A stretch of 50,916 nt of DNA from Sphaeroforma arctica JP610. Lineage: Eukaryota. This document shows, piece by piece, positions 1-24,770 of this stretch. Numbering within the stretch: position 1 is the stretch's first letter; each line of letters starts with the position of its first letter. The notes beneath the pieces are model-generated. The model ran no database searches and was not told where the DNA came from. It saw only the letters and a program-made list of their open reading frames with translations. Location of the stretch: the NCBI RefSeq assembly GCF_001186125.1, contig NW_014040396.1:42800-93715 (forward strand), read 5' to 3'. Made by a program: the position numbers and the translations under genes.

Positions 1-1694
1 GTCCGGATTGGTATCAGACATCAAACGATAATGTCCATGCTACTCACAGAGCGCGATTGTTAACAAACGCTCAAAATCGGGCACAAACAATTCCGACCCC
101 TGATGAGATGCCGCCTAATGGTCCGAATTTGTATCAGGACTCGAAAACCTTGGGGAAATCGCCTGATAGATTTTTTTTTTGGAACCAGCGGATTTACACT
201 TGGACATGGACACTCCTCGTAATTTATCGTCGTCGGCAAAGCGTTCCTTTGATGCCTTCCGCAGAGTAATGAAGTTATCGCAGCAACAGATGAACCAGAG
301 TCATGTGGCAACGAACTTATTTCGTGATAAGTTGCAATATCACCGTAAACCACGTTCACCAGATGAGTTGCAGGAGAATTCTCAGGATGCGGCGAATGTC
401 CCTATTGATGCAATTGCATACCGCAAGCACCTTCCTGTTCATCACGACCGCTACTTGGAAGACCCACAGGCAGTGAAACGTCATAAAGACTCGGAACCTA
501 CGGAGCCTAGCAATACTGCATCGACAGCGGCCGCGATGAAACTGCAAGTTTTTCAACTGACCCAACGAATGATGCAGGCAGAAGCGGACGGACGCATAGA
601 CGATGTGCGTGCGCTACAGGGTCTAATTCGTGCGTCGAATGAGACACTGAAGACGTGTTCAATAACGGTCGACAAACGAACACCGAAGGAATGGCCACCC
701 AACCCACATGGTAACTATTATTTGGACAATCCGCAGAAGATACAGTTACACGCTTTTATCTTGGACTGGCACAAGAATGCGCGATTCCACAAGCTAGAAC
801 CGATTCATATGCAAATGGGTTTACACCGAGCTCTACAGCATGAAAGGGCTCCTAAGGCGCTATTGGATTTTATTGTGGAAAACGAGCAAAAATTACAGTC
901 TATGACCTTTGAGGCTGCCACTACTTTTATTGTACGTACACAAGAGCAAGACCTGGAAGATAATGCATACCGCCAGGTGTTAGCATGCATGAAGCTGAAG
1001 CCATCGGTACCGCTTGATACTCAGATTCGTGATTTTGAACGCCAGGTGGAGTTCATGGAAATGCGACAATATGAGAACCCCCTAAAAGTATACCGCAACC
1101 ATGGTGTACTTAATCTTATACGCCAAGCTGCAGGTGGGGCGTACTACCGGGATACTTTTCGAATGCAACCCCTAAAACTACTCGTCTGAAAAGATACGCG
1201 ATGCATTCCGTGTGAACATTGACAAATCAGAAGAAAATCGCCAAGACAAGTTTTCGCGACCTCTACGAATTCCGGGGAACTCGCGATCACGCTCAAATTT
1301 GCGTATGCACCGCCTACGTCGAACCCACGGGTTCGTTGTTGGTCATGTGAACAAAACATTTCGCCGACATGCGAGTCGTTGTCTTAACTTACAACAAGTA
1401 CCGGTCCAGACTAGCACAGGTAGCCGCACACAAAATGGTGGGGCTACAGTTCAATGTACATCGGCTACAAGCACATCGACACGCGGGACTCACGGATCGG
1501 GTACTAATTTCCGACCCTGTGTTAACTTTGTGGACGGTGATATCATGCCTGATCAACCAACCACCGAGACGGGGGAGACTGAAGTGATGCACATTCATGA
1601 TTTGGTCAATGAGTCGTATGTGCAGAGTGACGATGAGTTGATGGAAGAAGAGCAGACACCCGATGGTTGGGAAGTTGGAACAGATTCGGACTGA
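1..1694 (+). pseudogene. gag: gag-like ORF of element A, frameshifted
   Basis: ORFs 57-269, 179-1189 and 1212-1694 are collinear with B ORFs at 15877-18092. A zinc-knuckle remnant (RCWSCEQN..HASRC) lies directly upstream of the protease. Confidence 0.75.
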
Positions 1695-4560
1695 CAGGCT
1701 GGGGTGCCTGATGTGAACATGTGTATGTCATTTAGTCGTACGGCAACAAGAATATTTGCAGTAAAAGATAAATTGTTTCCTACTGACAACCGTGTATATG
1801 TTACTTTGCAAGTGAACGGACGTGATATGTGCACCCTTGTTGACACAGGGGCCAACCGTTCAGTCATCGCTCAGGCATCCGCAGCTAATGCATACCTCTC
1901 TATTACACCACCGGCCAAGGATAGTTACATATACTTGGCGGACAAAGCCTTCAGGACTCCACGCTTGGGGAAAACACAAGCGACAAAGGTCCAGTACGGG
2001 TCAGCTGCTACTGAGGGTTGTACATTTGAACTTATGAACCTACCGGATAACATTGATATAATATTGGGTATGGATATTATGGGTGAGTTGGGATTAGGCT
2101 TAACCGGATTAGTATCTCCATTTCCAGAGATTAATCATAATGTTATGGATGAACTACTAGAACCAATCAATATTCGAATGGCCCCAAACTTGTCCGAGCC
2201 AGGTGATAAACGCGCACGCCTACGCCAATACCTGGATGCTAATGACACTATTCTGGATGCAGCTCGCTGCACACTCCCGGGTAGTGAGGTGTCACTCCCT
2301 ATTCCTCGGGATAAACTCCTGGGCCTACGTCGGCAGACAAGAAATTTTGTATCTGACAAATACAAACCACATGTAACGAAGCAAGTAGACAAATGGGAAT
2401 ACGAACTGGTCACCAATCGTCGAACATCGGCGTCGATCGCTAACCTTCCTTTGTTGGCAGTACCATCATTCACACCGTCGGGTGAACCTATTAAGGTGCG
2501 CGTGTGCTTGAACCTGCGGCAGATTAACACTCCTATTCCGGGCGATCAGTTTACGTTTCCAAAGGTCAACGAAATCATCAGCAACTTGAAGGGCAAACGT
2601 TACTACAGGTGCACGTCGATTCGCAGCACATGTTTTCGTTTACATGGAACAGTCAGCAGTACTCGTTTACGTCGGCTTCCTTTGGATTGACGACACTCAC
2701 GTCACAATTTCAACGTACAATCAGAAATTTGATGGCAGGACTGGACGTGCAATGATATGTTGATGATCTAATAATTGCATCGGACGATTACGAGGAGCAC
2801 ATTGCTACGGTTCAAGAGGTCATTCGACTCTTGACGGAGAAAAGCTTCAAACTTAATCAGAAGAAATGTCACTTTGCGGTGCGAGAGGTGATGGTCCTGG
2901 GAAAGAAGATATCAGCTAATGACATTGACGTGGATCATGAGAAGCAGCAACGTTTAATTGACTGGCCAGTTCCAAGATGTCAAAGGGATATTGCCTCTGC
3001 GTTAGGATTAGCAAAATTTCTACATGAGCATCTACCGAACTTTGCACACAAGATAGCTCCACTCCGAACATTCTCTAAACTTAAGCCAAAGGAGCCCAAT
3101 GGGGATCGTTGGAAGCCAGAACATCAATTGGCGTGGGATCAGATGAAGGAGGCTATCGTATCGGCAGTCAGGTTGAACTTTTCTGTTGATGGTGTACCAC
3201 TTGAGTTAGAGGCGGATGCAAGCGATTATGGAATTGGTGGCGCATTGTTTCAATTGATTGACGGACGCAAACATTACCTGATATTCTTCTCGAAAACTCT
3301 CAACAAGGCACAGCAGGCATATGCAACCCCGATGAAAGAATTATTAGCACTTACCTATGTTTTGGTTCACTTCCATGATCATTTCATTGGACAACGGTTT
3401 ACTGTACATATAGCTGAATAGCATGTTGCAGCGATGGCATCATATTATTGTACAGTTCAATTTTACTATTACACATGTACCTGGAGAACTGAACAAGTTG
3501 TCAGACCTGTGGAGTAGTTTTCATGAGGGCACGGCGGATATCAACTACCCCGTGGTGTTCTATACGTCATGTTGAAAGTTGTTTCCGGATTTCTTTGACC
3601 AGATCCAGAAGCACTTTGGACCAACGACGTCGACGCTTTTGCCTCGAGTCCTAACGCTCAGCTTCGCCAATACTGGTCGTACGACAAGGATGGCGGGGCG
3701 TTTAAATTTGACTGGAGTAAATACAACGCATGGATGAACCCACCGTGGCGTCTTATACATAAGGTGTTGCGTAAGGTGTTGAAGGACAGGGCGTCGGCAA
3801 CAATATGTTTACCGTTGAATACACGTGCGCCATGATTCCCTTTACTTCTATCGATGATACAAGCAGAACGTACGGCTCACACATTCTTGAAGCACGGCTC
3901 CCAGGCTTGTCTAAAACCCTAAACCCTAAAACCATCGTGGTACGTATTGGCCCTCCATCTAGGTACAAAGTCAATCCATCATTTTGGTGTGGCTTAGGCT
4001 TGAAGGTACCTGTATTTGAAGACGCTAGTACACATTATCAAGAAGATTGGGCACAATCGTTGATGACGAAACGAACGCGACAGATCCCTGCACAAATTCC
4101 TGAGATATGTGCGGGTGCTACAGTGATGAATCATCCAGGGCACGAGGAAGCAAACCGTCGTGTACAGTTGACATGCCAATTCCATGAACAAGGACATTCG
4201 GCCCCAGCAGTTACAGTACAACAGATGCGCGACGATGGACATAACTGGGACCAGATGCTTCCAATCACAGAAGTGGTCCGCAAGTTATGTCGCACATGCT
4301 TGGGCAACGATACGATGAAAAAAGGTTTTCATCCTTTAATGAATATTACCGCTCGGTATCCCTGGGATCACATACAAATGGATCCCATTCCTATGGCGGT
4401 CACATCCACTAAAGAAACCAAATTTATTTTACATGTGCTTGATGTGGCGTCGGGCTACTCTATTATACGGGCGATACCTGCGAAGGATGCAAAGACAGTG
4501 GCGGCAGAGTTAGTGTCAGTGTTTGGTGAGCATGGATTTCCTCTTAAGATTCAAAGTGAC
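1695..4560 (+). pseudogene. pol: pol of element A, N-terminal part: aspartic protease, RT, RNase H, MTase, integrase Zn finger and core start
   Basis: LVDTGAN protease; RVCLNLRQIN and YVDD (about 2756) RT; LEADASDYGIGGALFQ and KELLAL RNase H; H-x3-H...C-x2-C and PWDHIQMD integrase. Several stops and frameshifts. Confidence 0.92.
3573..3955 (+). pseudogene. Dam-like DNA N6-adenine methyltransferase domain within pol of element A
   Basis: Manual translation, not in the ORF track: *KLFPDFFDQIQKHFGP / VDAFASSPNAQLRQYWSYDKDGGAFKFDWSKYNAWMNPPWRLIHKVLRKVLKDRASATICLP. NPPW at 3737-3748. Confidence 0.88.
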
Positions 4561-4944
4561 TGTGGTCAAAACCAAGTAACACTTAATAAGGAGTGTTAAG
4601 TCTGAAATAAGTGAACTCAGTCAAAAGTGTCGTTATGATCGGCGCGTCTGCTGTATTTATTTATCACGTTCCTGTGTGGAACGAGATTTTCTCTAACAAC
4701 GGGTAATTATGAAAATACCCGTATCTATGGTTTTCGTCTCCTGGTTACTAAATTATGATGATACCTCTTGAGTCATCAATCATTCATATTAAATTCTCTG
4801 TCTTAATATTAGGTCCGGTCCCTCTGAGTACGGTCCTGAAATATTTTACTTAGGTCCGGTCCTCTGGTCCGGTCCTAAAATTACACTTGTAGGTTGGGCC
4901 CTCTGGTCCAGTCCTAAATGTCCGTCCAGGGTACTTTGTCCACA
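4561..4944 (-). repeat. 3' LTR of element B (384 bp)
   Basis: Direct repeat of 18375-18758 (about 20 mismatches by eye). TGTGG...CCACA termini. PPT-like TGGCGGGGC is adjacent on the - strand. Confidence 0.95.
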
Positions 4945-7440
4945 GCCCCGCCAAGTTGGGTGTTGGTGTGTTTCAATAATCTTTGAGAGTCTCTGTAATA
5001 AAATCTGTATTTGAAATAAAAATATAAAGGAAATATCCTACACGGATCGTGGGTTATTGTATCGTCGGAGATGTTCTTTACAGTTTCATCAGAGTGTCGT
5101 AAATATAAGGAAACAACCAGCAATACACAACTGTAAATAGACAAAAGTATCCCCACAAAATAAAGATTTTTTTTTTTAAAGATCCAAAAATGTGTCAGAA
5201 TTTATGATATAGTATCGCTTTTACTTTGTCGTGTGTCGTAAATATCCATTATGCTATATATTTATGCCACGCAACTAGTATGCGTACGTCACTGCGTCCC
5301 TATTTAACACATTGTGCAATCTTACTGTCGTAAAGTTGTTATAGCCGCTGTCTATATGGTTCTTTATATATTATAAAATTGATTGGTTCTTACTACGATT
5401 GAGTATGACTCGTGTGCCATATTTATACAAGTTGAATCCGTTAATACGTTTATAGTCTTTATGAAATATGGTTAGGTGTGTGTTGATCTGTATGTAACGT
5501 TTTCTAATACATATCGGTAAAACGTTTCAACGGGTTCAGTTATATAATGAAGCCGTGAATGCTATATGTTGATAGAAAATTAACAGTAAGACCCGATTAT
5601 ATGTGTGCGTATTATGGTGCTTTATGTGTTCATTAATTACTAGTTAGTATAGATATGGTTACTTTTCATTAGGTGTCGATTTGTCGATTGTAAAATGTCT
5701 GAGTGGCCATCTGCCATCCTAATGCTACTATGTGGATGACCTCCCGCAGTGTTTCCGAGTTTAAGTATTTAATGTATTAGTAATCTCATCTATTTTATAT
5801 TTAACGTACTGCGATTCATTGTAAATGGAAATGTCTTTTGTTGTAACATACTTCTAATATCACTACCTGTATCATTCTCTTCTATGCTAATACTGGTAAT
5901 ATTTGGACAGCTAATTATGGTATTCCTGTATATGTTGTGTAGTGCAAATATATATGTGTATATGTGTATCTGTTTTCCGTGATATTCTTCGATTCAATTC
6001 GTGTAATGTTTGCAATGTTGTAGCAATTTTATATGTGTATATTCGGAATATATGTCCCTATACATGTAAGTGAGTGTCTCTAAACCCGTGCTGTTAGAAT
6101 GTGTCATGTCACTATTCGTTGTTGTGCTCACTATCATTTGTTTATTAATTATGTCTAGGTAATCGTACATTAAATCACGAACGAATCTTGGTTGTAAATA
6201 TTTGTAAATTCATAAGATGGTTATAAGGTACTACGTATACTTTGTTTATAGTAATAATGATTAGTGTCTACGCGCATGAAATATATGTTCATGTTGACGT
6301 GTCGTGTTACTTGTATAGTACCATTTGGGTATTGTATTACCCAGTACAGTGCGTAATGGCATCAATTTGTGTGATTTCCAATTTATCCTTCCTATACTAT
6401 TGTATTATACCACGGAAGAGGTAATTATATATTGTGTATGTCAATTTATATCCCTGAGTGTCTTTGCCTCCAAGATGTTAGAGGATATATCTTATATTAG
6501 CACTGTCTGGTAGTTAACGAGCCTGTGTGCGTGGTCAATGTGAAATGTTCGTGTGTATTAGTGATTCTATGTTAGATCTTTGCGCTTTTAGTAAAATCGC
6601 CGTTGTATATCTTTATTTTGTAATTATGATAAGTTTAGAACTTCTATTATGTGTACTGATAACACACAACTCCAAAATCTCGTAAAATCACTATCCATTT
6701 GTAGTAAATGTGTGACATCTTAAGTCACGTTATCGTGCCATCTCAAGTATCCGTGTGCGTGATTCAAGTAGAGTTAGGTGTGCGGAAGCCATGTAATTGC
6801 TAAGCTACTGACTTCCTTTATTGTGTCAAAATATGCGTGCCTTAGCATGCTTATTTCCCGATATATACGAATTTACATGTATGTTATATGTTGGTTATTA
6901 CCTGTTTATGTTTGTTAACGTGTATATAAAAACGTTGAGCGTATTTTAAACGTAAACGTTTTTAAAACGCTTTTATTTATTTTTTAAAATGAAAAATTAG
7001 GCCCATTTTTAGTCCCCATTTTTCTGGAAAAATACATAAACGCATCAGACTATAAGCGTAAAACGCGTTAGACTGAAAGAAATACGTTTATGACAGATAT
7101 TATATTTTCATGCCTATTTGCCTCCGATGGTGCAGAAGCCTGTCAGTATACTTGGTGATTGTTCTAATGTTAGTATATCCTCTTCCTTCCTTGTTTTATC
7201 ACAGGTTTGACGAAGCAAATAGAGGCCTGTCTTGTTAATAAACAATGGTTATAGGTGACCTCTACCTGCCCTGCGTATCCAACCCCTTCATATGTGTTGT
7301 ATAATTATCTTCTCGGTTATAAATATTAATTACTTTTTGATGTGTTGTTAAATGTGTGTGTGTGTGTGCGATTGTGGTGTGGTGTCCTCTGAAGCATACT
7401 CGAGTTGGGCGCGCATTCGGCGACTCCGTCACAGCGCCTT

Positions 7441-7620
7441 ACACGTTCCGACTTCTACGTAATAGTGATACATGTTCCGACTCTTGCGTAGTAATGTTAT
7501 ACATGGTCCGCCTCCTACGTAATAATGCCTGCATGTTCCGACTCTTGCGTAATGACGTTGTACAAGTTCCGCCTCTTACGTAATGATGTAACACGTTCCG
7601 ACTTTTACGTAATAATGTTA
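7441..7620. repeat. About six 29-30 bp tandem units (ACATGTTCCGACTCTTACGTAATAATG-like) in the 3' non-coding region of B
   Basis: Visible array; a diverged counterpart is present in A at about 20455-20605. Confidence 0.85.
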
Positions 7621-8371
7621 TCCAGCTCAATACCATTCAGGGCGGCTATGCAACACGCTCGAAGCTGCGGTTGCTCACCGACTGTAATGCTCACGCAAAA
7701 TTTAATGCGCCGTGTCCTCAGGGTTGCTCGCCTCTGAGTAAAAATAAACGGGGTGCTCGCCCGTATTCTCAGCATCTAAATTAAACATACATAATCTATT
7801 CTGTCAACTGGGTGCCACGCAACACGTTCGAAGCTGCGGCTAATAACCGAGCTCACACAAAATTCAATGCGCCGTGTCCTCAGGGTTGCTCGCCACTGAG
7901 TTAGAGTCACCAGGGTGCTCGCTTATACTCTTAAGCATATAGATATCCTTGCCACACACAACCACCACTCATTGTGTAACGACTTCGTGCGTCGTATGTG
8001 TCATGTTCAAAGGTTTATTTCATGCCTAAGCATATATAGTGTTGCGTTATAATATTCTTGTCGCATCAAAGACAATGTACCACATCACCAACATATCACT
8101 GGGATGTACTTTACTTACTTGCAATTGTGCTGTATTGCCGGTGTCGTTGTACTTGATCTATTTGAATGATACATGATATATAAGACTATTGTAATGTGAA
8201 GTAGTATACTATCCTATCTATGTCGTGCAAGTACTGTGTGCATGTCTCAAAGTCTATGTAAGTTTACTTTATTAATAATCACGTTTGTGTGTGTCTCCTC
8301 TCGTGCAGTTGTCACTCATGCATGCAGTAAGGACGCAGCCCCGGCCAGACATACCATCGACCAAGGCCGCT

Positions 8372-8503
8372 CTAACCTTGGACCAGCCGTCGCTGTCGTC
8401 GACTCTCACGAGTTTGGATTCGCTTACGGTATGCAGTCACCACATTCGGATCATCAAAGGCATCCGCTGTCAGCCATGTGGGAGAGCCCTCTAACCGGCG
8501 TAC
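8372..8503 (-). pseudogene. pol: C-terminal half of the chromodomain of element B pol
   Basis: RRLEGSPTWLTADAFDDPNVVTAYRKRIQTRESRQRRLVQG*. Joins EYLV at about 14055 across element C. Confidence 0.88.
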
Positions 8504-9405
8504 TGTAAAAGTCGGTCTCGTCTTGGCTGACTATACGATACCAATGCGTTTACGTTAATAAGAAAATACGTTATTACGTTAAAATGTAAAAAATTAAATA
8601 AGTTTAGCTTCAGCCCTTGGTAATGAGCAAAAGATTAGGGGATTTTAGACTGAGACTATTGTCTATATGCTCCGCTCTAATCACTCACTACTCCGGTCTA
8701 GATTTATTTATGTTTTAGTTACTAAGACTAGATATCATTTCATTGGACGCATAGTTTACATTTCACGCCTCGAAACAATTACCTAATCAAACTAACCAAT
8801 AAAATACCTCTAAGCCCAACTTAAGAAAATAAAAATAAAATCAAAACACCAAGCTGGTGCAGTATATATCTGCACCTAAACCCCATCACTTGGTACCTAG
8901 CTCCCCATCCCATTTAAGGCATAGACGGGCACATCTAGTTGGCTGGCTAGGAGGAATCAAAACCATATTGTCCTAAATTCTAACAACTCTGATCCTGTCC
9001 TTTTCTCAGTGGATTATCTTACTCTGAGATCATTATCGAATTATACCATAGGCTTGTACCAACAACCATTTCATGCCTTAGACCCTCTCTCATGGTACTC
9101 CCATTAATTAGAGATTCCCAAAGTGTCATTTTCAGGTGTCAGATTGGTGTCGTTCCTATATTATGTACAATTCTAATTTCAGTGGAAAACCCAATCATTA
9201 TTTTGAAAACCACCTAATTGTCCACAGTAGAGTCCCATACTCTACTGAGTACTGTCACATGTTCAGAATCTTGAATTTCTCAGTTCTTGTTCATGTCCAA
9301 TTCGTTAAACGTATTCCAGTATTATTAATATAATCGTTAATACATTTATACAGTAATAATATACGTTAACTGTGCAACTACTATTAGGAACCCGCTATTT
9401 TTACA
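8504..9405 (-). repeat. 3' LTR of element C (902 bp)
   Basis: About 9185-9405 is nearly identical to 13830-14051. TG...CA ends, adjacent PPT. Confidence 0.9.
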
Positions 9406-9541
9406 TAGCCCCCCCTCAGCTTGAAAATTACAATGTTGGCTTATACGTGGTATTAGCACATGGACTCAAAAAGCTCACATGAATTGTATAAGCGAAAAGA
9501 ATGAAACGGGTTTCGATCATTGAACGGCCTCAATGCCTATG

Positions 9542-12500
9542 TTATATCCTCTTAGACAAAGTTGGGCTTTGGTCCTTTTGGTCCCCGATGGTGGATGGTA
9601 CGTTTCTTAATGCCTTTTGGAGGTACGTACATTCCATGCTGTTTAAAGCTGGCAATGTATGATGTCTGTGGATAGATCTTAACCACTTCGGGTCGCTTAT
9701 TCGATGGTAAGATTGTTTCTGCATCAGCCTTATTTTTGTGTAAGCGTTTGCGAAACTTCTTATTAAAAGCCTTTAGTACATCCGGATCATCAAATGCTGA
9801 TGGTGGAAGATCATGCTGTGCTCCATCGGCGAACTCCGTAGTTTAATATGTCATATCCTCATGTTTGTACTTCCCTAGAATCTTCTTAACCTCGTAAGAC
9901 ATAAGAGGTGTAGTAGCTTCACGTGTGCGACGAAGGATGATCTCTGTCGTAGGGATTCGATGTGACCCGATATTTAAGGCACTAGAGCCGTCAACGTTGT
10001 TAACTTCAAACGTTTCGCTCTTCTTATCGGCCACAGATATCATAAATGGTCCAATATATTTAGCCGTAAGCACAGTTGTATCGGAGTTGCGAGCCATAAT
10101 GTTGACTATATCACCTACCTCAACTCGACTATTTTCTTGGTATCATTCCATTGCTTTTGTCTCTTCTTGAGAGCGATGTCCTTCATCTTCCTTAAGCAAG
10201 GATAGACCACATCTCTGGTCCGACGCATCTTCTCTAACCATGGTAACACATGATCATCTTGAGACTCCTTGTTGAAGGGGATATGTAATTCACTATAACG
10301 GCCCCGGAAATAGTGTGCGGGTGTTGTACCAGTGACTGAATCAGGGGATTCGTTCATCTGTGTCTGTACCCAATTGATTGAGTACGGCCACATGTCAGCA
10401 TCATCAAGTAGTGCTCATCGCATGAACTCCTTCATCCTTCCGTGTCGTACCTCGTTTGCACCTTGTGTCTGAGGCTTGTAAGGTACACCCATCTTATGGC
10501 ATGATCCCGCAACGAGTAACAGTGTCGTCATGACATCTCCTGTAAACTCACTACCGTTGTCGAAACATACAATAGCTCAGCCGAAATCTGCGAAGCACTT
10601 AAATATGCACTCAGCCACAGTTTGTGTCGATTTATCTTTCAGCGGATACAATATATTATATCTTGATGCGACATCAAACACGTGGCAGACATATTTATCC
10701 TTCGTGTGTTCGGACGTGGGTAGCTCAACCAAATCAATGATAACCAGGCGCCACGGCTCGTCTTCTGATACGCTGCGTAAAGATGCGTATCCGTAGCGCT
10801 TGATCCGGTTAACTTCGCAGTTGTTACATTCGTGATACACCTGAGATATATATTGCTTGAGGTTCGGGGGTACGATTCCGTACCTCTTGCAATCTTTCTC
10901 AGTTCAAACCCTAAAACGCATGTGCTTAAGAGCATGATTTTGTCTTAACCACTTCAGAATCGCCTCCTGTGATTTACTTGTTACATTGAAATCAGGAGGT
11001 GAGGATTTCACAGCGTCATCACCCGGACTCGAAGACTCGTCTTGTCCAATCTCGCCTAAAGCTGCTACATCGTGAATCCGACTAATGTTTGATCTGTCCA
11101 TTAGTTGAGTCACATAATCATATACCTCGGAAAAGTCATTCATCAATTGCTTAAGCAATCGAGTTTCTGCTTGGTATGCAGTTTCCCTGTCAGACCGTAT
11201 CTTGTTGTAGAGGCTTTCATTAGGGTTGCGCTCCTCTTTGATTCCTTTGAATTTGGCTGTATCTCGGAAACACATACTGCAGGTGCTTGTGTTGTCCCAG
11301 TCTCTGATTGAGACTTAGGATTCAAGAGTGGAATCTTGGATTCATCAACCTTCTGTTTGAAAGTCTCGGATGGCGTCCACTTGGTTGTTCCAACTGGTCC
11401 TATTCGACATATAATAGTATGTCGCCAAGGCGTCTTTTGGACTGCACGGATACCCTGGTAGAGAAAAGTATCTACCTCTCTATCCACATAGATCGGCTCA
11501 CATTGTATCATTGAGATCAACTGTGGTAGCCATTTATCTGAGTATCTTAGGAGACAACAAAACGTGATGGTAGTATCTTGAATATGTACATAATTTAGCA
11601 ACTGTGGTATTAATAGCCATGAAGGATTTGCCCAGGGATTCTCGTGAGGCAAGTATATCTGGAATCCGTCTCCTTCCGGATGTTTCAGTGTCCGGTACCT
11701 CCGCAGTTGCGCATTATGATGAGCGACAAACATATCTATGGTATGTGGTCCATATATGTTGTCAGCGATCTTAAACCACCTAGGATTGGCCATCCAATCT
11801 GTAGCTAGTAACTCCCTAACCATCGTGCTAAAGTCAGGTACGAAGCGAGACAACATGTCGGGTAAGTGATTGTGAATACCCGGTATATGTGTTATGTCGA
11901 AAGAAAATTTCGCGATCGTGTCATACCACTGACTGACTAACTGTCAGTTAGGTTTCATGTCCTTTAGGTGTTGCAATGACTTCTGATCACATAGCACGTT
12001 AAAGTGTGTGCCATATAGATTGTCCTTAAAACGAGTGAGTGCAGTAACAATAGCCAAAAGCTCTTGTTTCACGGTTGGGTAATTGATCTGAGACGAATTC
12101 ATAGCCCTGCTAAAGAACTGTACATATCTTGGTTTCCCATCAATTATTTGATACAAGACGCCGCCGAGTGCCATGTCGGACGCGTCTGTTGCTACCATGA
12201 ATGGAATACCATCCTTTGGTGGCTGGACTACTGGTGCCTGATGAACCACTGTTTTGAGCTGCTTAAATGCGTCATCACAGTCTTTGGTCCACAGTGCGCC
12301 TAGTTTGCCTTTATGACATCTCAAATGTCCAAAGGGCTTTAAATAACTTGCCAGGTGTGGTACTCCGTCAGACAAAAAGTTGACGAATCCGCACATGCTG
12401 TTGACATCCTTACCCGTGGTAGAAGTTCTCCAGTCTTGCAAGTGGCCGACCTTCCCGGGATCGATCATGATTCCATCCCCGAATACTCGGTAACCCAACA

Positions 12501-13691
12501 GCTGAATCTCGTTAACACCGAAGTGACATTTCTTACTGTTGACCTTAAAGTTGTGCTTGTCGAGTCTGTCTAGAACCTCTCGCACAACCCTTACGTGCTC
12601 CTCTTTGGTTTTGGTGAATACCACAATGTCATCAATGTATACTTGTACATTGTCCATGTCCCTAAACAAGTCTTGCATAATTTGTTGAAAGAACGCAGGT
12701 AACATGTGTAACCCAAAGAGGGCACCTTTGAACGAATATTGCTGACCCTCCCAGGTAAAGGTGAAATACTTCCGATGTGGTTTGTAGATCTTCATCTGGT
12801 GGTAGCCCTGCTTCAGGTCGATAGTGGAGAATATCTTAGCTCCCTCCATGCGCCTGAGTAGTTCGTTTATCCTTGGTAAGTGAAAATTGTGTGTCGGTAT
12901 CAAAGCGTTAATTGGGCTCATATCCAAACACACCCGAACTACTTCAGCGTCCCGTCAGAGTTGAATTGGTCGACGGCTAAAAGCGCTAGGTTGACGGGAG
13001 TCGGCTCGTAATTGACTGCGATCACTCCGTCATCTAATTATGCTTTAACCTGTTCTCGTACGACCTGCTCATGACGCCATGCAACATAGTTACGTGTTGG
13101 ACACTTCAGCTTCGAGAAATCTACTCTCGTCAGGTCTAGACTAACGAATCCGTTATTGAATTTGAACTTAGCTCAGTCAGTGATCTGAATCTTGTCGTTC
13201 TCGAAAATCAAGTCCTTGAGTTTCTCTGTGAAGTGAGGGATCATCTCCTTCACAGTCTTCGAAGGTTTATATACCGGTTTCAACAAGTTGTCGTCCGACT
13301 GATCCTTCTGTGGTTCAATGTTAGTAGGTAAGCCTGTAATTGTGATACCTAATGGCAATAAATCACTCATACCTACTATGAGATCATAGTCTGGTGAAGT
13401 ATTACATATGACTGCCTTAGTAACTATAGTACGTTGGTCTGTCAATATAAACCTAAGATCGATTGCCATTTCCCTGCAAGTGATCTCTCTTTCATCAGCC
13501 AGTTTCAACATAGTTGGCTCTGACTTACGAGTTACGTCTGTCATTTTACAGAATCTAGAGGATATACATGAAATTTGCAAGCCCGGATCCAGCAGCACTT
13601 TTATTTCATGTCCGTTAACTCGTATATCTAGGATTACACGCTCGTCTTGAGGTGCGTCCTTTTGTCTTAGTGACAAGACCCGGTATGTTTG
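9542..13691 (-). pseudogene. pol: pol of element C: PR, RT, RNase H, MTase, integrase, chromodomain
   Basis: VLLDPG protease; STIDLKQGYHQ and YIDD RT; ATDASDMALGG RNase H; CNNC and PWRLVIIDLVEL integrase; KYIGPF; YEVKKILG..SAFDDPDVL chromodomain. Stops and frameshifts throughout. Confidence 0.93.
11396..11799 (-). pseudogene. Dam-like DNA N6-adenine methyltransferase domain within pol of element C
   Basis: DWMANPRWF...GPHTIDMFVAHHNAQLRRY...DGF...NPWANPSWLLIPQLL...PWRHTIICRIGP, in frame just after the RNase H end (IPGIHNHLPDMLSR). Confidence 0.87.
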
Positions 13692-13829
13692 TCACTTAAC
13701 TTCAACTTTTGGTTTCACCTTGCATGTATGCTTGTGGTAACCTCCAGTCCCGATACAGTCGGCACACTTCTCGATAAAGTGCATACACTTTTCTGCGTGC
13801 CTTCCATTCCATCTGCCATTCGGCTCATG
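13692..13829 (-). pseudogene. gag: gag C-terminal remnant of element C with zinc knuckle
   Basis: HAEKCMHFIEKCADCIGTGGYHKHTCKVKPKVEVK* (C-x2-C-x6-H-x3-C). Confidence 0.75.
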
Positions 13830-14051
13830 TGAAAAACCAATCTTTATTTTGAAAACCACCTAATTGTCCACAGTAGAGTCCCATACTCTACTGAGTACTG
13901 TCACATGTTCAGAATCTTGAATTTCTCAGTTCTTGTTCATGTCCAATTCGTTAAACGTATTCCAGTATTATTAATATAATCGTTAATACATTTATACATT
14001 AATAATATATGTTAACTGTGCAACTACTATTAGGAACCCGCTATTTTTACA
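13830..14051 (-). repeat. Truncated 5' LTR of element C
   Basis: Matches about 9185-9405. The inner part of the LTR, the PBS and most of gag are deleted. Confidence 0.9.
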
Positions 14052-14055
14052 GTAC

Positions 14056-15876
14056 TAGGTACTCCGATTTCTGAGTCGCCTCATTGTGGCGGTGTGATAT
14101 GATGTGCCGGAATGTCGATACCCTTCTCTCCAAAGTGACTCGTCTAGTTGTGGCTCCGTAGCCCGGTGAACTAGCCGAATATTCTCCACATTAACTGGGC
14201 GATCTCTGAGTTCCGGCGGTTTGCTGCCATCCTTGTCTCGTAGATGGTAACTCTGGTTCACACAACTATGAATTACATACGGACCCAGCAAAGGCTTCTT
14301 GGCTTTGGTAGTCGCTCCTTGTGCGAGTATCATGACAACGTCCCATGGCTTAAATTCAATTAAATCAAACTTCCGCATCTGGTCAATGGCCTCCGCCATA
14401 GCACCAGTGTACTTGATAGTTTTCTGATGAATTTTTGGCAGAATCGTCTTCTCAAGGTCATCCAATCGCTTAAGCCGTGCATCATTCGTGGTCGGAATAT
14501 GATCAGGTAAGTCATCAGTCATGTCCGCAAATGGAACATGGCGGCGCCCAAAGTAAACACTAAATGGTGTTGACTTGTGTCGACGTGATATCCGGAGGTT
14601 CTGGTAAAGCATAGTAAAAGGTAGGCGTTCATCCCACAATTCCGGACAGCCCACACAAAGCGCGCGCACACATATGTGAATTTCTTTGTGTCGGTGCTCT
14701 GCCGCACCCAATGTTTGAGGACAATATGGTTAAGATGTCTTGTGTATAATTCCGAGTGCTCGTGTTATAGACCTGACAATGTTGTTGAAAAATTCAGTCC
14801 GCTCATCACTCTGAATTTTCCGAGGAAAGCCACGCTCACCAAATACCGATACTTACTCTGTCGCCACCGTTTTAGCATTTTTTGCAGGCAGCGCCCGTAG
14901 AATAGAGTATCCGGATGCCACATCCAAGACATGTAGAATAAACTTGTTGCCTTTAGTAGATGTTATTGCCATCGGAATGAGATCCATTTGAATGTGATCC
15001 CAGGGATAACATGCCGTAATACTCATTAAAGGATGAAATCCTTTCTTCATAGTGCCATTACCTAAACATGTGCGACATAATTTCCGGTCCTCTTCCGTTA
15101 TTAGAAGCATTTGGTCCCATTTGTGTCCATAAGTTGACCACTGACGCCGACGTACGACGTTTGATCACCAATTCATATTCCCATTTATGTACCTGTTGCG
15201 TGACGTGTGGTTTGTACTTGTCTGACACAAAGTACCGTGTTTGTCGTCGAAGGCCCAAAAGTTTTTCGCGAGGTATGGGGAGGGATACTTCGCTGCCTGG
15301 TAGAGTTCATCGAGCCGCATCCAAAATGGTCTCGTTGGCATCTAAATACTGACGTAGTCGTTGCCGTAATCCTCAGGTTCGGATAAGTCTGGTGCCGTTC
15401 GAGTGTCGATCGGTTCGAGTAGCTCATCCATAACATTACGATTGATTTCTGGAAACGGAGTTGATAGACCAGTAAGACCTAAGCCCAATTCGCCCATAAT
15501 ATACATTCCCAGAATTACATCAATATTATCGGGTAAATTCATATGTTCAAACGTACAACCTGTAGCAGACTTTGTACCATATTGAACCGTCGTGGCGTGT
15601 GTCTTGCCAAGGCGCGGAGTGCGAAAAGCTTTGTCCGCTAAGTATATGTAACTGTCCTTAGCTGGTGGTGTAATAGACAGGTGCGCCATTGCTGCGGATG
15701 TCTGAGTAATAACGGAACGGTTCGCCCCCGTATCAATGAGTGTGCGCATGTCCGTTGACTTGTAACGTAACATATACCCGGTTGTCAGTAGGGAACAATT
15801 TATCTTTTACTGCAAATATTCGTGTTGCCGTTCGACCAAACGTCACGCACACGTTTAACTCAGACACCCCAACATC
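14056..15876 (-). pseudogene. pol: pol of element B: PR, then integrase; most of RT, RH and MTase deleted at about 15131
   Basis: LIDTGAN protease; RT N-terminus (SASVVNL) fused to the integrase Zn finger (GHKWDQML..CRTC); PWDHIQMD; LLGPY. Confidence 0.9.
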
Positions 15877-18329
15877 TCAATTTGAGCTTGGCTCATCTTC
15901 CCACTCGGCTGGACCTTGCTCGGCCTCCATCAACTCATTTTCACTGTCAACATACGACTCGTCGACCAAATCATGAATATGCATCACCTCACTCTCTCCT
16001 ACCTCATCTGGCGTCTGACCAGGCATCTGATCATCCCCATCCACGAGATTAACTCGAGCACGGAAGTTGTTACCCAACGCCTGTTGTGTGCGCGTGGATG
16101 TTCCCCCAGCCGATGTACGGTGTGGTGGCGCACCCCTACGTTGCGTATGGCTGCCCGTGTTCGTTGCTGTCGGTGCTCGCATTAACTTAGGGTAACGTGG
16201 TGCGTGTGCTGAGCCAGGAGGGAGATTCTGCTCACAGGACCGACATCGAGCCCTAGGGTTCGATGCTGGCGGTGCATGCGGATTAGCTCGTGTGTTGGCC
16301 TCCACACGTATTCGTGTGCATGAATGTGAACCCCCGGGGATTTGCAGTGGTCGGGAAGGTTTGCCCGACGGTGTTCTTCCGCCTTATCAATACTCACCCG
16401 AAATACATCACGCATTTGTGCCGCGGAATATTCTCGCCAATTAGGGTGCATACGAAGAATACCACGGTAATATGCACCCCCCGCAGCTTGATTGATTAGG
16501 TTGAGCATACCATGGTTGCGGTATACTTGTAGTGGATTCTCATACTGTCGCATCTCCATAAAGTCTACTTTGGTTCAAAATCACGAAGTTGTGTCTCTAG
16601 TGGCACCGAAGGATTTAACTTCACGCAAGCCAATACATTTCTGTGCGTTGTCCTCCAGATCTTGTTCGTGTGTGCGTACAATATAAGCAGTGGCGTCCTG
16701 AAACGACATGGACTGCAATTTTTGTTCGTTCTCCACAATAAAATCCAAAAGCGCCTTGGGTGCTCCTTCTTTCTGTAGTACCATATGTAGGCCCATCTGC
16801 ATATGAATCGGGTCTAATTTGTGAAATTTTGCATTCTTATCCCAATCCAAGATAAACACATGCAGCTGTATCTTCTGTGGATTATCCAAATAATAGCTGA
16901 CCTGTGGATTAGGTGGCCATTCCTTGGGTGACCGTTTATCTACCGTTATTGAGCAAGTCTTCAACGTCTCGTTAGACGTGCGAATTAAACCCTGCAACGA
17001 ACGAGCTTCCTCGGTGTGCCCCTCAGCTTCTGCTTGTATCATACGTTGGGTGAGAAAAGTCTTCAACGTCTCGTTAGACGTGCGAATTAAACCCTGCAAC
17101 GAACGAGCTTCCTCGGTGTGCCCCTCAGCTTCTGCTTGTATCATACGTTGGGTGAGAAGGAATACCTGCGTTTTCATCTCTGCCGCAGTAGATTCCGTCA
17201 TGAACGCCTCAGTAGGTGGTGATAACTTACATCGTTTCACATCCTGCGGGTCTTCTAGGTAGCGATCGTGGTGAACAGGAAAGTGCTTACGGTATGCAAG
17301 CGTATCGATAGATACATTTGCATTATCCTGTCAATTCTTCTTTCTTTCTTCTGGAGATTGCGGACGACGATGCTGTTGTAATTTGTTCCTGAATAAATTC
17401 GCTGCCACTTGACTGTGAGTAGGCTGTTGGCGTGGCGATTTCATCACTCTGCGAAATGCCTCAAAAGATCGCTTCGCCGATGATGACAAATTTCGAGGGG
17501 TAGCCATGTCCAAATGTAAGTCCGCTGGGTCCAAAAAATCTCTACCAGGTGATTTCACCAAAGTACTTGATTCCTGATACCAATCTAGACCATCAGCCGG
17601 CATCTCATCAGGAGTCGGAATTGTCTGGGCTCGATTTTGAGCGTTCTTCAGCAACCGCTCTCTACGCGTAACATGGACATTCTTGTAAGGAGCCACTTGA
17701 GGTACGGGCTTCGTGCGGCCAATACCGCGTTTCACCGGGCTAATTTGCTTCATGTCGATAGCCTCGCTGTCAGGTGATTTGTCGGTTGGTGTCAACTCTG
17801 CCTGTGTTGTGTATTGAGGAGCCCAATGTTGTTGCACTGTTGGTTCGGCCTCAGTCTCAGAAAAATCATCATTCACTGTTGTCTGGGTCGTGTCCTGGGG
17901 CATAGACGTGTCAATATCTGCCAGTGACAATTGACGGAGTTGGCGGAGTTGCTCTTGAATGAGGCGACTCATTTCCTTTGCCTCCTTTACATGCAGCAAC
18001 GTATTCAAGAGTCCTGCTTGATCCGCAATCCATGCTGGGGCTCGGCTAAGCCTACCCAAGGTTTGGATTGAGTACTGGGCCTCCAAAAGCAAATGTTATA
18101 ATTCCAAATGGATCCCCACCTTCTCGTCGTCGTCGGGTGCAGGTTTCTTGGCACGTGCTGTATCCACCTTATCGCATAGCTCGGTTAAATGGCGAATCGT
18201 TCCAAGCAACCGTTTCAGCAGCTGGTCACAGGGTAGCTTACCCACTGTAGGCAACGGTCTAGTCTCGGGTCCCGTCATTGTTGTAAAAAATAATTTTATA
18301 CTAAGTTGTTTCTTAGTTAATTTAACCAT
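15877..18329 (-). pseudogene. gag: gag-like ORF of element B (about 815 codons, frameshifted)
   Basis: Starts MVKLTKKQ 45 nt inside the 5' LTR edge; homologous to A gag; CRSCEQNLPPGSAH knuckle. Confidence 0.78.
16955..17158. repeat. Exact 102-bp (34-codon) tandem duplication in B gag
   Basis: LTQRMIQAEAEGHTEEARSLQGLIRTSNETLKT occurs twice; single copy in A. Confidence 0.9.
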
Positions 18330-18374
18330 GAAAGAACGCAGTATAATAAATACAGTAGTTCGGTCACATAAAAA

Positions 18375-18758
18375 TGTGGCCAAAACCAAGTAACACTTAA
18401 TAAGGAGTGTCAAGTCTGAAATAAGTGAACTCAGTCAGAAGTGCCGTTATGATCGGCGCGTCTGCTGTATTTATTAATCACGTTCCTATACGGGACGAGA
18501 TTTTCTCTAACAGCGGGTAATTATGAAAATGCCCGTATCTATGGTTTTCGTCTCCTGGTTACTAAATTAAGATGACACCTCTTGAGTCATCCATCTTTCA
18601 TATTAAATCCTCTGTCTTAATATTAGGTCCGGTCCCTCTGAGTCCGGTCCTGAAATATTCTACTTAGGTCCGGTCCTCTGGTCCGGTCCTAAAACTCCAC
18701 TTGTAGGTTGGGCCCTCTGGTCCAGTCCTAAATGTCCGTCCAGGGTACTTTGTCCACA
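18375..18758 (-). repeat. 5' LTR of element B (384 bp)
   Basis: Direct repeat of 4561-4944; contains about 40-bp GGTCCGGTCC subrepeats. Confidence 0.95.
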
Positions 18759-18762
18759 TGAC

Positions 18763-19643
18763 GAGGGCACCGAATTTGTAAACAATATTGTCAAATTCAT
18801 CATACGAGCGTTGGGCATTATACACAAGACGTCCCAACCATACCGCCCGCAGACGTTGGGTGCGGCGGAGCGCCGACATAAGGAAATCCACAAATGCGTG
18901 CGCGCATTGTGTGTTGGTTATCCGGAGTTATGGGATGAATGTCTACCGTTTACTATGTTATACCAGAGCCTTCGGATATCACTACGTCACAAGTCAGCAC
19001 CATTCAGCGTTTATTTTGGTCGACGACATGTCCCGTTTGCAAACATGACTGATGATTTACCTGGTCATATTCCTACCACGAATGATGCATGGTTAAAGAG
19101 GCTGGATGATTTGGAGAAGACTATCTTACCAAAACTTCATCAGAAAACGATTAAGTATACTGATGCCATGGCAGAGGCTACGGATCAAATGCGTAAATTT
19201 GATTTGATTGAATTTAAGACGGGGGACGTCGTCATGATACTCGCTCAGGGAGCAACGACCAAGCCATGAAAACACTCCTTGGTCCGTACGTGATTCATAG
19301 TCGGGAGAATCAGAGTTACCATCAACGAGCAAAGGATGGCAGCAAGTCGCCTGAGCTCAGAGACCGACCCGTGAATGTGGAGATTATTCGGCTTGTACAT
19401 CGGGCTACGGAACCACCACTTGATGAATCTCTATGGAGAGAGGGCGGTTCGACATTTCGACACATCATATCGCACCGTCATAATGAGGCGACTCAACAGT
19501 CGGAATATTTGGTACGCTGGTTGGAAGGATTTCCTACATGGGTGACAGCCGATGCCTTTGACGACCCCAACGTCGTGCCTGCACATCGCAAGCGGATTCA
19601 AACGCGTGAGAGTCGACGACAACGACGTCTGGTACAATGTTAG
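18763..19643 (+). pseudogene. pol: pol of element A, C-terminal part: integrase core, GPY motif, chromodomain
   Basis: EGTEFVN..PYRPQTLGAAERRH; LLGPY; HIISHR..EYLVRWLEGFPTWV chromodomain. Confidence 0.92.
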
Positions 19644-22600: not shown

Positions 22601-24070
22601 CTTGCAAATCACGGTATCAGGAATAAGGCCCCAGATACTCTTCTTTATGCAGGAATTAATGAACCATACACACACAAACGACGAGAACATTTAGGTGGTT
22701 TACACAGTTTGCTTCACAGTGGTTTGATACTACTTAGACAATAGAATACAAAAGGCACCAAAGGTTGACATAGCGTTTACAAAACGTTAAACGAAATACA
22801 TATATACACAGAGTTTGAATACTATAACGTATTGTTTAAACGTTTTACGGATTCGACAACAAGCAACACATAGTCAGACGCGAGACACGTGCCAAATTAG
22901 GATATATATATAGTGCACGACAATACGTTGTGCGAGACACAGAGGCTATTATAAATAGTGACCAATTTAAACCAATTATCGATAATAGTTGGAAATATGG
23001 GTCGTAATGTAATAAATATACTGTTAAATATGTATACGTATAAGGTATAAAAATAAGAATAAAACGACAGAGTGGATATTTACGACCATGGGTTTGATAT
23101 ATAAAATAAAAATACTAGGGATAATATTATTTATTTCAAGAAAAAAGATAAGCTACAAAGTACGAATGTTACAATGTATGAAGACATATGGTATGGCTCT
23201 CATAGCCGTTGTAGTGGTTCGGGAAAGATCGATGGGAAGAAGTGGTCAGTAAATTCCCGTTTGAAGCTTGGGCCAAGTGAGTCGACGATGGAGGATATGC
23301 GCTGAGTCATTTCGGACCGGTGCTGACAAAACACTGATACCATCGAATGTGTCATGTATTCGCTTGCTGACCTACTAAGTAGCGTACCCACCTCTGTGGT
23401 ACGGATCGAGTCTGCGCCGTGGAGTGCCGTGGAATGGGTTAGTGCAGAGTACGAAATACCGAGTAGGACCAGGTTATCCGTCATAATTCGGTCGAGGAGC
23501 AAGGATGGGGGGGTATGTGCTGTCTGGCCTGAGTCGGAAGTATCATAGGCGAGACCAACAAGCGCGATGATCGGTTTGAACCGAAATTTGGAAGTAGTAC
23601 TTCAACAGCGTGATTAGCCGGGGTATGGGGAATATCTGTTGATGTATCAGAGACGGGTGAGGGTACGGTGGTTCTTCTACATGCTGGAAAAAAGATCCAA
23701 GGTGTTCGTGGAGGGTCCAGATACCGTGGAAATCGTGGCACTCCTGTAATTGCTGGAGGAGGTCAGGGCCAATGGGCGGATAGTTTATTTATGATTTTAT
23801 TTTTATTACATTTGATAGATTTCCAACACGGATTTTATATATAGATAATTCAATACAAAACAGGTACTTTAGTCTGTTTACAGTTGCCTGGGTGATATTT
23901 TAGCCACAATTATTTACGACATATATAATATTTGATAAATAAGATATTCTAACGATGCAATAACTCCACGGTTCGTGTAGGATATTACCGTTATATTTTT
24001 ATCCATAAATTATCACAAAATTATGGCTTAAATAATCATTGAAAAATACCAGCACTCAACCTGGCGGGGC

Positions 24071-24487
24071 TGTGAACAAAGTACCGTGACGGGAATTTAG
24101 GACAGGACCAGAGAACCGGACTGACAAGAGGAATTTAGGACCGGACCAGAGGACCGAACCTAAGGGAAATATCTAGGACCGAATCAGAGACTCGGGCCTA
24201 AGAGGATTTTATTGAAGGGCGGACCCGAGGACTGGACTAGATAGGGGAATATATAAGTTAGTGAGAAAGAATGATGACTCATCAGATATTCATTATATAG
24301 TAACTAGGAGACCATAATCTTAGATACGGAGATTTTCACAATCTGCCGTTGTTAGAGAAAGTCTCGTCCCATATAGGAACGTGATTAATAAATACAGCAG
24401 ACGCGCCATTCATAACGGCACTTCTGACTGAGTTCACTTATTTTAGACTTAACACTCTTTATTGAGTATCGCTTGGTTTTGACTATA
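24071..24487 (+). repeat. 3' LTR of element A (about 417 bp)
   Basis: Diverged reverse complement of the B LTR with one extra subrepeat. Begins TGTGAACAAAGTACC and ends GGTTTTGACTATA (decayed GACCACA). Confidence 0.88.
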
Positions 24488-24770
24488 GCATCATTCACAA
24501 AGTTCATGACTACCAGGATATGAAAGATTCCATTGAAGACTTCCCATCCACGATCATTAGGGAGCAAGGGCGGTTAATTGTAAAGTGCTCATAAGAGGAT
24601 AGGCCCAGACTTTTACGCCTGAAGCGATAACAGTTCTCTATATAAATCATGTGACGAAAGATGCACAGGACGATAACAGCAAGACCTGTGATCGAGCTGC
24701 AACTATCTGTACACACAGAAGCACACAATTTTTATTTATTAGTCTAGCATACAATTTGCTAATCGTCACA

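What the first reader, a model, noticed from the sequence alone, without database searches (positions are those of the whole stretch)
3573..11799. Gypsy chromovirus-like retrotransposons with an N6-adenine DNA methyltransferase fused between RNase H and integrase (two divergent families)
Seen: element A (3573-3955, +) reads W*KLFP..FGP.DVDAFAS.PNAQL..Y...GAF..DW...WMNPPW.LI.KVL, and element C (11396-11799, -) reads DW.ANP..YGPHTIDMFV..HNAQL..Y...DGF....WANPSW.LIPQLL. Both lie at the same pol position, right after RNase H and before the HHCC integrase finger, and both end ..RIGP. Established: this motif series is that of the phage-Dam-like MT domain that follows RT/RH in DIRS-type tyrosine-recombinase retroelements; canonical Ty3/Gypsy pol (PR-RT-RH-IN-chromo) lacks it. 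Inference: an old lineage of DDE-integrase LTR elements kept a 6mA writer, possibly to mark its own cDNA or integrated copy, for example mimicking the ApT 6mA that marks active genes in several unicellular eukaryotes and early-diverging fungi. The copies here are dead, and C has NPSW rather than NPPW. I cannot confirm that this arrangement is unpublished.
Basis: partly seen in the sequence, partly recalled or inferred. Interest (0 to 1): 0.92.

Follow-up and report, generated by a model that had tools for sequence, protein, structure and literature searches.

The report
Gypsy retrotransposons carrying adenine methyltransferase domain
These are broken copies of two families of Gypsy-type jumping genes whose enzyme chain contains a phage-type adenine methyltransferase domain, likely used to mark their own DNA copies; a 2026 preprint already described this design, and the new detail is a faint histone-reader-like domain (chromodomain) in a lineage reported to lack one.

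Summary
Observation confirmed, but already in print. A and C are Ty3/Gypsy LTR elements. C and B (a second copy of A's family) have TG..CA LTRs and 4-bp target duplications; A and C have HHCC zinc-finger integrases and Ty3-like RT. Both carry a Dam-family (PF05869) domain between RNase H and integrase. Intact relatives hold PR-RT-RH-Dam-IN in one ORF. C's domain folds (pLDDT 91) like phage N6-adenine DNA methyltransferases and PCIF1/CAPAM. C's NPSW is private decay: other copies read NPPW, and 11 of 13 variable sites among them are synonymous. The elements are nested: C in B, B in A. Both group with Abeoforma and Sphaeroforma proteins, the ichthyosporean DAM-LTR lineage of bioRxiv 10.64898/2026.05.21.726589. 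That preprint proposes the same 6mA-mimicry model and reports a negative dam- E. coli assay. This scan also noted the design before on other DNA (12 findings, at least 3 genomes). Additions here: a divergent chromodomain fold at the end of family A's integrase, in a lineage described as lacking one; evidence of purifying selection on the domain; and, in passing, a copia-type polyprotein with Dam. Activity and substrate remain unshown.

The parts
170..1694 (+). Element A, gag-like region (two frames; 5' end of the element lies outside the window)
   Evidence: ORFs 170-1189 and 1176-1694; about 72-74% DNA identity to B's gag region; no Pfam gag hit
1695..3520 (+). Element A protease, RT (frameshift/short deletion near 2606, stop before YVDD) and RNase H (stops)
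   Evidence: Pfam gag-asp_proteas E 5e-10, RVT_1 E 3e-8, RT_RNaseH_2 E 3e-24; tblastn pieces
3549..3955 (+). Element A Dam-like N6-adenine methyltransferase domain (DAFA..NAQL, NPPW), broken by two stops and two frameshifts and shortened near its C-terminus
   Evidence: PF05869 E 3.2e-6; alignment with relatives
3960..4560 (+). Element A linker, HHCC finger and first half of the integrase core, cut by insertion of B
   Evidence: rve E 1.4e-5; junction with target duplication TGAC
4561..18758 (-). Element B: a family-A copy inserted in A's integrase; LTRs 18375-18758 and 4561-4944 (384 bp, 20 mismatches); RT-RH-Dam deleted internally
   Evidence: LTR K2P distance 0.054
18763..19640 (+). Element A, rest of the integrase and C-terminal chromodomain-like region (19449-19622)
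   Evidence: reading continues across the target duplication; Pfam Chromo E 0.033; 5 of 5 PDB sequence hits are chromodomain proteins; fold search
24062..24488 (+). Element A polypurine tract and 3' LTR, after about 4.4 kb of non-coding 3' region that includes an assembly gap
   Evidence: about 75% identity to B's LTR and same purine tract
13831..14051 (-). Element C, remnant of 5' LTR (221 bp, 4 mismatches to the 3' LTR); the rest of the LTR and gag are deleted
11947..13691 (-). Element C protease, RT (YIDD) and RNase H
   Evidence: Pfam RVP_2, RVT_1 E 7e-28, RT_RNaseH_2 E 9e-30; best solved relatives 4ol8 and Ty3-G Gag-Pol 7q5b, E about 1e-52
11395..11799 (-). Element C Dam-like domain, open frame (DMFV..NAQL, NPSW in this copy; DMFA and NPPW in other copies)
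10118..10950 (-). Element C integrase: HHCC finger and D,D,E core, with stops
   Evidence: rve E 1.4e-5; frames; colinear with P0002/P0003
9750..9900 (-). Element C putative degenerate chromodomain-like segment (one stop)
   Evidence: position and alignment of its relatives with A's segment only; not detected by the chromodomain profile
8504..9416 (-). Element C polypurine tract and 3' LTR (902 bp, TGTAAAA..TTTTACA), target duplication GTAC, inside B's chromodomain region
   Evidence: contigs of two runs join 8500 to 14057 without C

Best explanation
A and C are dead copies of two Ty3/Gypsy LTR retrotransposon families (DAM-LTRs) whose Pol polyprotein holds a phage-Dam-type methyltransferase domain between RNase H and integrase, which likely writes N6-methyladenine on the element's own reverse-transcribed copy. 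Shown: the domain order in one ORF, LTRs, target duplications and a DDE integrase, the predicted fold, intact DxFA and NPPW motifs in the family, and mostly synonymous variation in the domain. Inferred: Pol is packaged in the particle; the domain, 16-95 residues behind RNase H, acts in cis on cDNA or the RNA-DNA intermediate; after integration the host's ApT maintenance enzyme AMT1 would copy the mark and keep the new insertion transcribable (the preprint's model). The divergent chromodomain would guide integration. One ancestral capture probably accounts for both families.
For: Intact relatives with PR-RT-RH-Dam-IN in a single ORF. RT tree: A and C sit in a 12-row LTR clade (SH-aLRT 95), apart from 30 Dam-terminal DIRS-like rows (100). 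The model has pLDDT 91. Best viral folds are phage DNA N6-adenine methyltransferases, E 2.6e-7, TM 0.73; T4 Dam Z 8.8, rmsd 2.8, 113 aligned. 33 of 35 alignment members hit PF05869 and 28 of 35 hit phrog_111. NPPW/F in 17 of 19 clade rows. 11 of 13 variable sites among other family-C copies are synonymous, against 21% expected, while 0 of 7 changes private to C are. The Dam domains of A, C and 18 others form one side of a branch at 93/96 in the 43-row tree. The preprint reports more 6mA and more expression on DAM-LTR insertions in two ichthyosporeans.
Against: No methyltransferase activity has been shown: the preprint's dam- E. coli assay was negative. Iyer et al. judged DIRS-type domains likely inactive and PCIF1-derived. 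The nearest solved structure is the RNA cap enzyme CAPAM/PCIF1, Z 10.0-10.9, above T4 Dam at 8.8. One intact relative has CPPW (P0002). 6mA enrichment could follow from transcription rather than cause it (inference). In the 90-row Dam tree A fell outside C's 18-row clade, in a polytomy, and the 93/96 branch is not starred. The 13 variable sites are not independent, since several come from the same diverged contigs. No ApT or GATC bias stands out in the elements, apart from GATC 25 vs 15.5 in C pol.
Confidence: 0.55

Rival explanations
1. The domain is active but on RNA: it methylates the element's transcript, for example the cap-adjacent adenosine as PCIF1/CAPAM does.
For: Best solved folds are CAPAM (Z 10.9, rmsd 3.6, 135 aligned), then Erm/KsgA RNA adenine methyltransferases (Z up to 9.4). 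8 of 35 alignment members hit PCIF1_WW. Iyer et al. put DIRS domains in the PCIF1 clade. It would explain the negative DNA assay. The preprint's main text never mentions PCIF1.
Against: Phage DNA methyltransferases are closer than PCIF1-like proteins in sequence (33 vs 8 of 35) and in predicted fold (E 3e-7 vs 8e-4). No solved PF05869 relative was found, so CAPAM leads partly by default. The 150-residue domain has no room for CAPAM's other domains (chains of about 470-490 residues).
Confidence: 0.18
2. The domain is kept for a non-catalytic role: binding SAM, nucleic acid or a host factor during reverse transcription or integration.
For: Negative heterologous assay; the view of Iyer et al.; motif variants CPPW, NIPF and HPPW in some long, apparently intact polyproteins. 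Earlier scan notes report conserved but motif-less versions in other genomes (unchecked).
Against: The SAM-binding aspartate is present in 18 of 19 clade rows (the other starts after it) and NPPW/F in 17 of 19, across deeply diverged families.
Confidence: 0.2
3. The domain is a neutral passenger inherited from a DIRS donor.
For: B moved or persisted without it, although its deletion also removes RT and RNase H.
Against: Synonymous excess among family-C copies (binomial p about 2e-6, sites not independent); retention in families only about 35% identical in RT.
Confidence: 0.05
4. The arrangement is a chimera or assembly artefact: a DIRS RT-RH-MT fragment lying next to an unrelated integrase.
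For: The region is a nest of three insertions, with assembly gaps nearby.
Against: Single-ORF relatives colinear with C. RT-RH is Ty3-like and groups away from DIRS-like rows. LTRs and 4-bp duplications bound C. No Pfam hit, tyrosine recombinase included, in 46 of 46 stop-free segments of the remaining element DNA.
Confidence: 0.02

Closest known systems
DAM-LTR retrotransposons, ichthyosporean lineage (Fernandez-Moreno et al., bioRxiv 10.64898/2026.05.21.726589; whole main text read, figures and supplement not seen)
   Same: Ty3/Gypsy LTR element with a Dam domain in Pol and an Asn-Pro-Pro pocket. Named Abeoforma whisleri (P0005, P0009, P0043) and Sphaeroforma arctica (P0017) proteins fall in the same Dam clade. 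Same functional hypothesis.
   Different: The preprint says this lineage lacks chromodomains. Here family A ends in a chromodomain-like fold, and the A. whisleri member P0009 scores 20.4 bits on a chromodomain profile although Pfam misses it. The preprint says eukaryotic DAMs lack the first catalytic half of T4/E. coli Dam; here the structural alignment runs from T4 Dam residue 7 to 259 (113 aligned; range only).
DIRS1-group tyrosine-recombinase retrotransposons with RT-RH-MT (passages in PMC5890265 and PMC4738411)
   Same: Homologous methyltransferase domain directly after RNase H.
   Different: Here the ORF continues into an HHCC/DDE integrase, there is a protease, the LTRs are direct with target duplications, no recombinase was found, and the RT groups apart.
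Phage DNA N6-adenine methyltransferases, PF05869 / phrog_111
   Same: Closest sequence family and predicted fold.
   Different: 12-19% identity in structural alignments; here a polyprotein domain; target sequence unknown.
PCIF1/CAPAM cap-specific adenosine methyltransferase (6irv-6is0)
   Same: Nearest solved fold, Z 10.0-10.9.
   Different: 10-12% identity; CAPAM is a much larger cellular enzyme acting on RNA.
Chromoviruses (chromodomain-bearing Ty3/Gypsy)
   Same: Chromodomain-like fold at the end of the integrase in family A.
   Different: Far below the Pfam cut-off (14.5 vs 25.1 bits). By eye the aromatic cage is incomplete, as in group II chromodomains (definition from PMC3605345, passages). 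RT membership untested.

Membership tests
Ty3/Gypsy LTR retrotransposon | Pol order PR-RT-RH-IN | tested here: met
Ty3/Gypsy LTR retrotransposon | Direct LTRs with TG..CA ends, polypurine tract and target-site duplication | tested here: met
   C: GTAC, 902-bp 3' LTR, 5' LTR truncated. B (family A): TGAC, 384-bp LTRs. A: 3' LTR only, since its 5' end is outside the window
Ty3/Gypsy LTR retrotransposon | RT related to Ty3 rather than DIRS | tested here: met
   Ty3-G Gag-Pol E 1.5e-52; tree separates them from Dam-terminal rows, SH-aLRT 100
Ty3/Gypsy LTR retrotransposon | tRNA primer binding site or self-priming site | tested here: inconclusive
   Deleted in C, outside the window for A. In B the sequence after the 5' LTR does not begin TGG and has no complement of 7 nt or more in B's LTRs
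DAM-LTR (preprint) | Dam domain within the Pol of a non-DIRS LTR element | tested here: met
DAM-LTR (preprint) | Conserved Asn-Pro-Pro pocket | tested here: met
   A NPPW; family C NPPW in other copies and in P0003, NPSW private to this copy
Ichthyosporean DAM-LTR lineage as worded in the preprint | Dam domain groups with Abeoforma/Sphaeroforma/Pirum elements | tested here: met
   C at 98/91; A and C together at 93/96; names
Ichthyosporean DAM-LTR lineage as worded in the preprint | Lacks a chromodomain | tested here: not met
   Family A has a chromodomain-like fold; family C undecided. Filed under DAM-LTR in general; the stated absence looks like a detection-threshold effect
Ichthyosporean DAM-LTR lineage as worded in the preprint | Host is an ichthyosporean encoding AMT1 | not testable with these tools
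   No genome held; host lineage inferred only from named relatives of the elements
N6-adenine DNA methyltransferase (EC 2.1.1.72) | Rossmann amino-methyltransferase fold with SAM-binding and NPPY-type motifs | tested here: met
N6-adenine DNA methyltransferase (EC 2.1.1.72) | Methylates adenine in DNA | not testable with these tools
   The preprint's heterologous assay on representative DAM-TE proteins was negative
DIRS retrotransposon | Tyrosine recombinase, no DDE integrase or protease | tested here: not met
   rve and protease present; no Pfam hit in 46 other segments of 55 aa or more
Chromovirus | Chromodomain at the integrase C-terminus | tested here: inconclusive
   Fold-level support for A (best Foldseek E 0.079; all 38 listed rows are chromo-fold proteins); none for family C by profile
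Chromovirus | RT falls in the chromovirus clade | not tested
   The RT tree held no reference chromoviruses without Dam

The most novel reading that the evidence does not exclude
This lineage pairs a cryptic chromodomain reader with an active writer whose substrate is the element's own RNA or RNA-DNA intermediate (PCIF1-like) rather than double-stranded DNA. That would explain the negative E. coli assay and recast DAM-LTRs as self-modifying during replication.
Probability: 0.15. Interest if true: 0.7.

Novelty: new member of a known kind. Interest (0 to 1): 0.3.

Why it matters
The class is interesting (a transposon that may write the host's 'active' DNA mark on itself), but it is already described, together with this lineage and this hypothesis. 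What this window adds is modest: a correction (a chromodomain-like fold where none was reported), sequence evidence that the domain was under purifying selection, and natural intact proteins (P0003) with which to test DNA, hybrid and RNA substrates, which is the open question after the negative E. coli assay.

Tried and rejected
No genome is held, so genome-wide copy counts and an AMT1 search could not be done. A sequence search of PDB with C's domain, and with a 35-row profile, found no methyltransferase. Foldseek on PDB gave no match at E 0.001 or better for either model. The wide VIA search and the Atlas search did not complete, so CAPAM's top rank rests on Foldseek's own shortlist. A search for intact family-A polyproteins with A's 78-aa piece returned only one DIRS-like protein; the nearest family-A relative is P0012, 48% in RT-RH. 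No RNA holder was listed; one run laid was only guessed to be RNA, so nothing is claimed on expression. A single family-C C-terminal segment hit no chromodomain in PDB, and the chromodomain profile missed P0002 and P0003. A deeper alignment of the clade's C-terminal segments was not made, so family C's chromodomain stays open. Self-priming in B: no complement found. ApT/GATC bias: nothing notable. Rejected: DIRS chimera, neutral passenger, and NPSW as the family state. The donor of the domain was not tested, because the trees held no phage rows and the hits were chosen by likeness to A and C.
Full report
Observation. Six-frame translation shows both motif series at the stated places. C's domain is one open frame continuous with the end of RNase H. 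A's is split over three frames, with a stop where relatives have the first W. A's central piece hits Pfam Dam PF05869 at E 3.2e-6; C alone hits it at E 0.08-0.12. A and C match each other at 35% over 102 residues, the same level as their RT-RH.

Anatomy. The first 24.5 kb are a nest of three LTR elements. A (+) runs gag, PR, RT, RH, Dam and half of the integrase to 4560. It resumes at 18763 with the rest of the integrase and a C-terminal domain, and ends in a purine tract and 3' LTR at about 24062-24488. B (-, 18758 to 4561) is a second family-A copy with 384-bp LTRs (20 mismatches) and a TGAC duplication; an internal deletion has removed RT, RH and Dam. C (-, 14051 to 8504) sits in B's C-terminal region with a GTAC duplication, a 902-bp 3' LTR and a 221-bp remnant of the 5' LTR; gag is deleted. 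Contigs of 2 of 4 runs laid join 8500 to 14057 without C. LTR distances (B 0.054; C 0.018 over 221 bp) fit the order A, B, C. So each integrase belongs to the element that carries the Dam domain.

Intact relatives. Two Logan proteins, P0002 and P0003, are colinear with C and hold RT-RH-Dam-IN in one ORF, with the protease region in front. A profile of four domain rows matched 4554 cluster representatives at E 0.001 or better; the best 150 were returned. I scanned 28 proteins in Pfam, chosen as the top-scoring or long ones (27 of those 150 plus P0004). The top hits are LTR polyproteins with the same RH-Dam-IN order, and most lower hits end just after Dam, as DIRS ORFs do. Of 10 proteins looked up, 4 carry species names: three Abeoforma whisleri and one Sphaeroforma arctica. 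The host is therefore likely an ichthyosporean; this is inferred, since no genome is held.

Trees. The RT-RH tree used 49 of 65 eligible rows (16 of 46 Dam-terminal rows left out; A read with X at breaks). A and C fall in a 12-row LTR clade (SH-aLRT 95), and all 30 Dam-terminal rows lie on the other side of a branch at 100. The best solved relatives of C's RT-RH are 4ol8 and Ty3-G Gag-Pol. The Dam tree used 90 of 152 rows (62 unclassified rows left out): C is in an 18-row clade at 98/91, while A pairs with P0015 in a polytomy outside it. With 43 rows, A, C and 18 others form one side of a branch at 93/96, not starred. One capture is favoured, not shown. Three chromodomain-type LTR rows group among DIRS-like rows, which agrees with repeated captures. 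No phage rows were included and hits were selected by likeness to A and C, so the donor is untested.

Fold and motifs. AlphaFold2 on a 35-row alignment gave pLDDT 91. Among viral models the best matches are phage DNA N6-adenine methyltransferases (E 2.6e-7, TM 0.73), with PCIF1-like proteins from rank 14. Among solved structures CAPAM/PCIF1 leads (Z 10.0-10.9), ahead of Erm/KsgA (up to 9.4), T4 Dam (8.8) and E. coli Dam (8.2); no solved PF05869 member was found by sequence. By sequence, 33 of 35 rows hit PF05869 and 8 of 35 hit PCIF1_WW. In the clade 15 of 19 rows have NPPW, 2 NPPF, 1 CPPW and 1 NPSW (C).

Selection. Contigs of four runs from four studies were laid on C's domain; these are probably one or two related organisms, and one may be the window's source. 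At the NPSW serine nearly all laid depth in 4 of 4 runs reads proline, and at the DMFV valine alanine. Of 20 listed differences, 7 are private to this copy and all change the residue; 13 vary among other copies and 11 are synonymous, against 21% expected. The sites are not independent and come from collapsed contigs, so this is supportive, not a formal dN/dS.

Chromodomain. A's segment 19449-19622 gives Pfam Chromo E 0.033, and 5 of 5 PDB sequence hits are chromodomain proteins (best E 0.046). Its model (4-row alignment, pLDDT 74) has three strands and a C-terminal helix, and all 38 listed Foldseek rows are chromo-fold proteins, none at E 0.001 or better. A profile from four Pfam-positive chromodomains finds this segment as the only stretch of 3 bits or more in the window's six frames (10.6 bits). 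It places its best stretch behind the integrase in 8 of 10 clade proteins, but only 2 of 10 (P0009 of A. whisleri 20.4, P0026 12.1) beat the best of 500 shuffles (8.9), and it misses both family-C proteins. Family A therefore likely has a divergent chromodomain; family C is undecided.

Prior work. A search for retrotransposon, Gypsy, adenine methyltransferase and DIRS returned 2 papers. The bioRxiv preprint 10.64898/2026.05.21.726589 (whole main text read; figures and supplement not seen) describes DAM-LTRs and names an ichthyosporean lineage that 'lacks chromodomains'. It reports more 6mA and more expression on such insertions, proposes methylation of RNA-DNA intermediates followed by AMT1 maintenance, and found no activity in dam- E. 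coli. Iyer et al. (PMC4738411, passages) place DIRS domains in the PCIF1 clade and think them inactive. PMC5890265, PMC6338049 and PMC3605345 were seen as passages. The preprint's main text has no 'copia', 'PCIF1' or 'CAPAM'. A five-term search for copia with an N6-adenine methyltransferase domain found 0 papers, and a search on Sphaeroforma, chromodomain and Gypsy listed no other paper on these elements among 20 shown; the supplement may bear on all three points. The scan's own index holds 12 earlier findings of this design in at least 3 genomes.

Mechanism and verdict. Most likely the domain travels with Pol in the particle and methylates the element's own cDNA or hybrid, seeding a mark that the host maintains (0.55). 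Rivals are a non-catalytic role (0.2) and an RNA substrate (0.18). The identity as DAM-LTR is near certain; the chemistry is unshown. Real, correctly read, already described; interest 0.3.

Noticed in passing
P0145 (one search hit, Logan, 2098 aa), residues 616-755: Copia-type polyprotein (Retrotran_gag_2, zf-CCHC, Pol_BBD, rve, RVT_2) with a Dam domain (E 1.3e-8, NPPW intact) between the zinc knuckle and the protease. The preprint's main text has no 'copia' and a paper search found none. Single protein, DNA context not seen.
   Followed up: partly
P0025 and P0062: Polyproteins with an APE-type endonuclease, then Dam, then RT, RNase H and an integrase zinc finger in one ORF; may correspond to the preprint's mixed Euglena group.
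   Followed up: no
window 4945-8370 (-) and 19640-24060 (+): Family A has a 3.4-4.4 kb region between pol and the 3' LTR with internal repeats and no Pfam hit in segments of 55 aa or more.
   Followed up: partly
window 18350-18374 (-): The sequence after B's 5' LTR is not a typical tRNA primer site and has no complement in the LTR; priming mode unexplained.
   Followed up: partly
window 16955-17158: Exact 102-bp tandem duplication inside B's gag region; recent duplication or assembly artefact.
   Followed up: no
window 40291-40650 (-), with further open stretches to about 45820: Host gene exon with a C3HC4 RING finger (E 2e-8), amid many tandem repeats of 13-159 bp.
   Followed up: no
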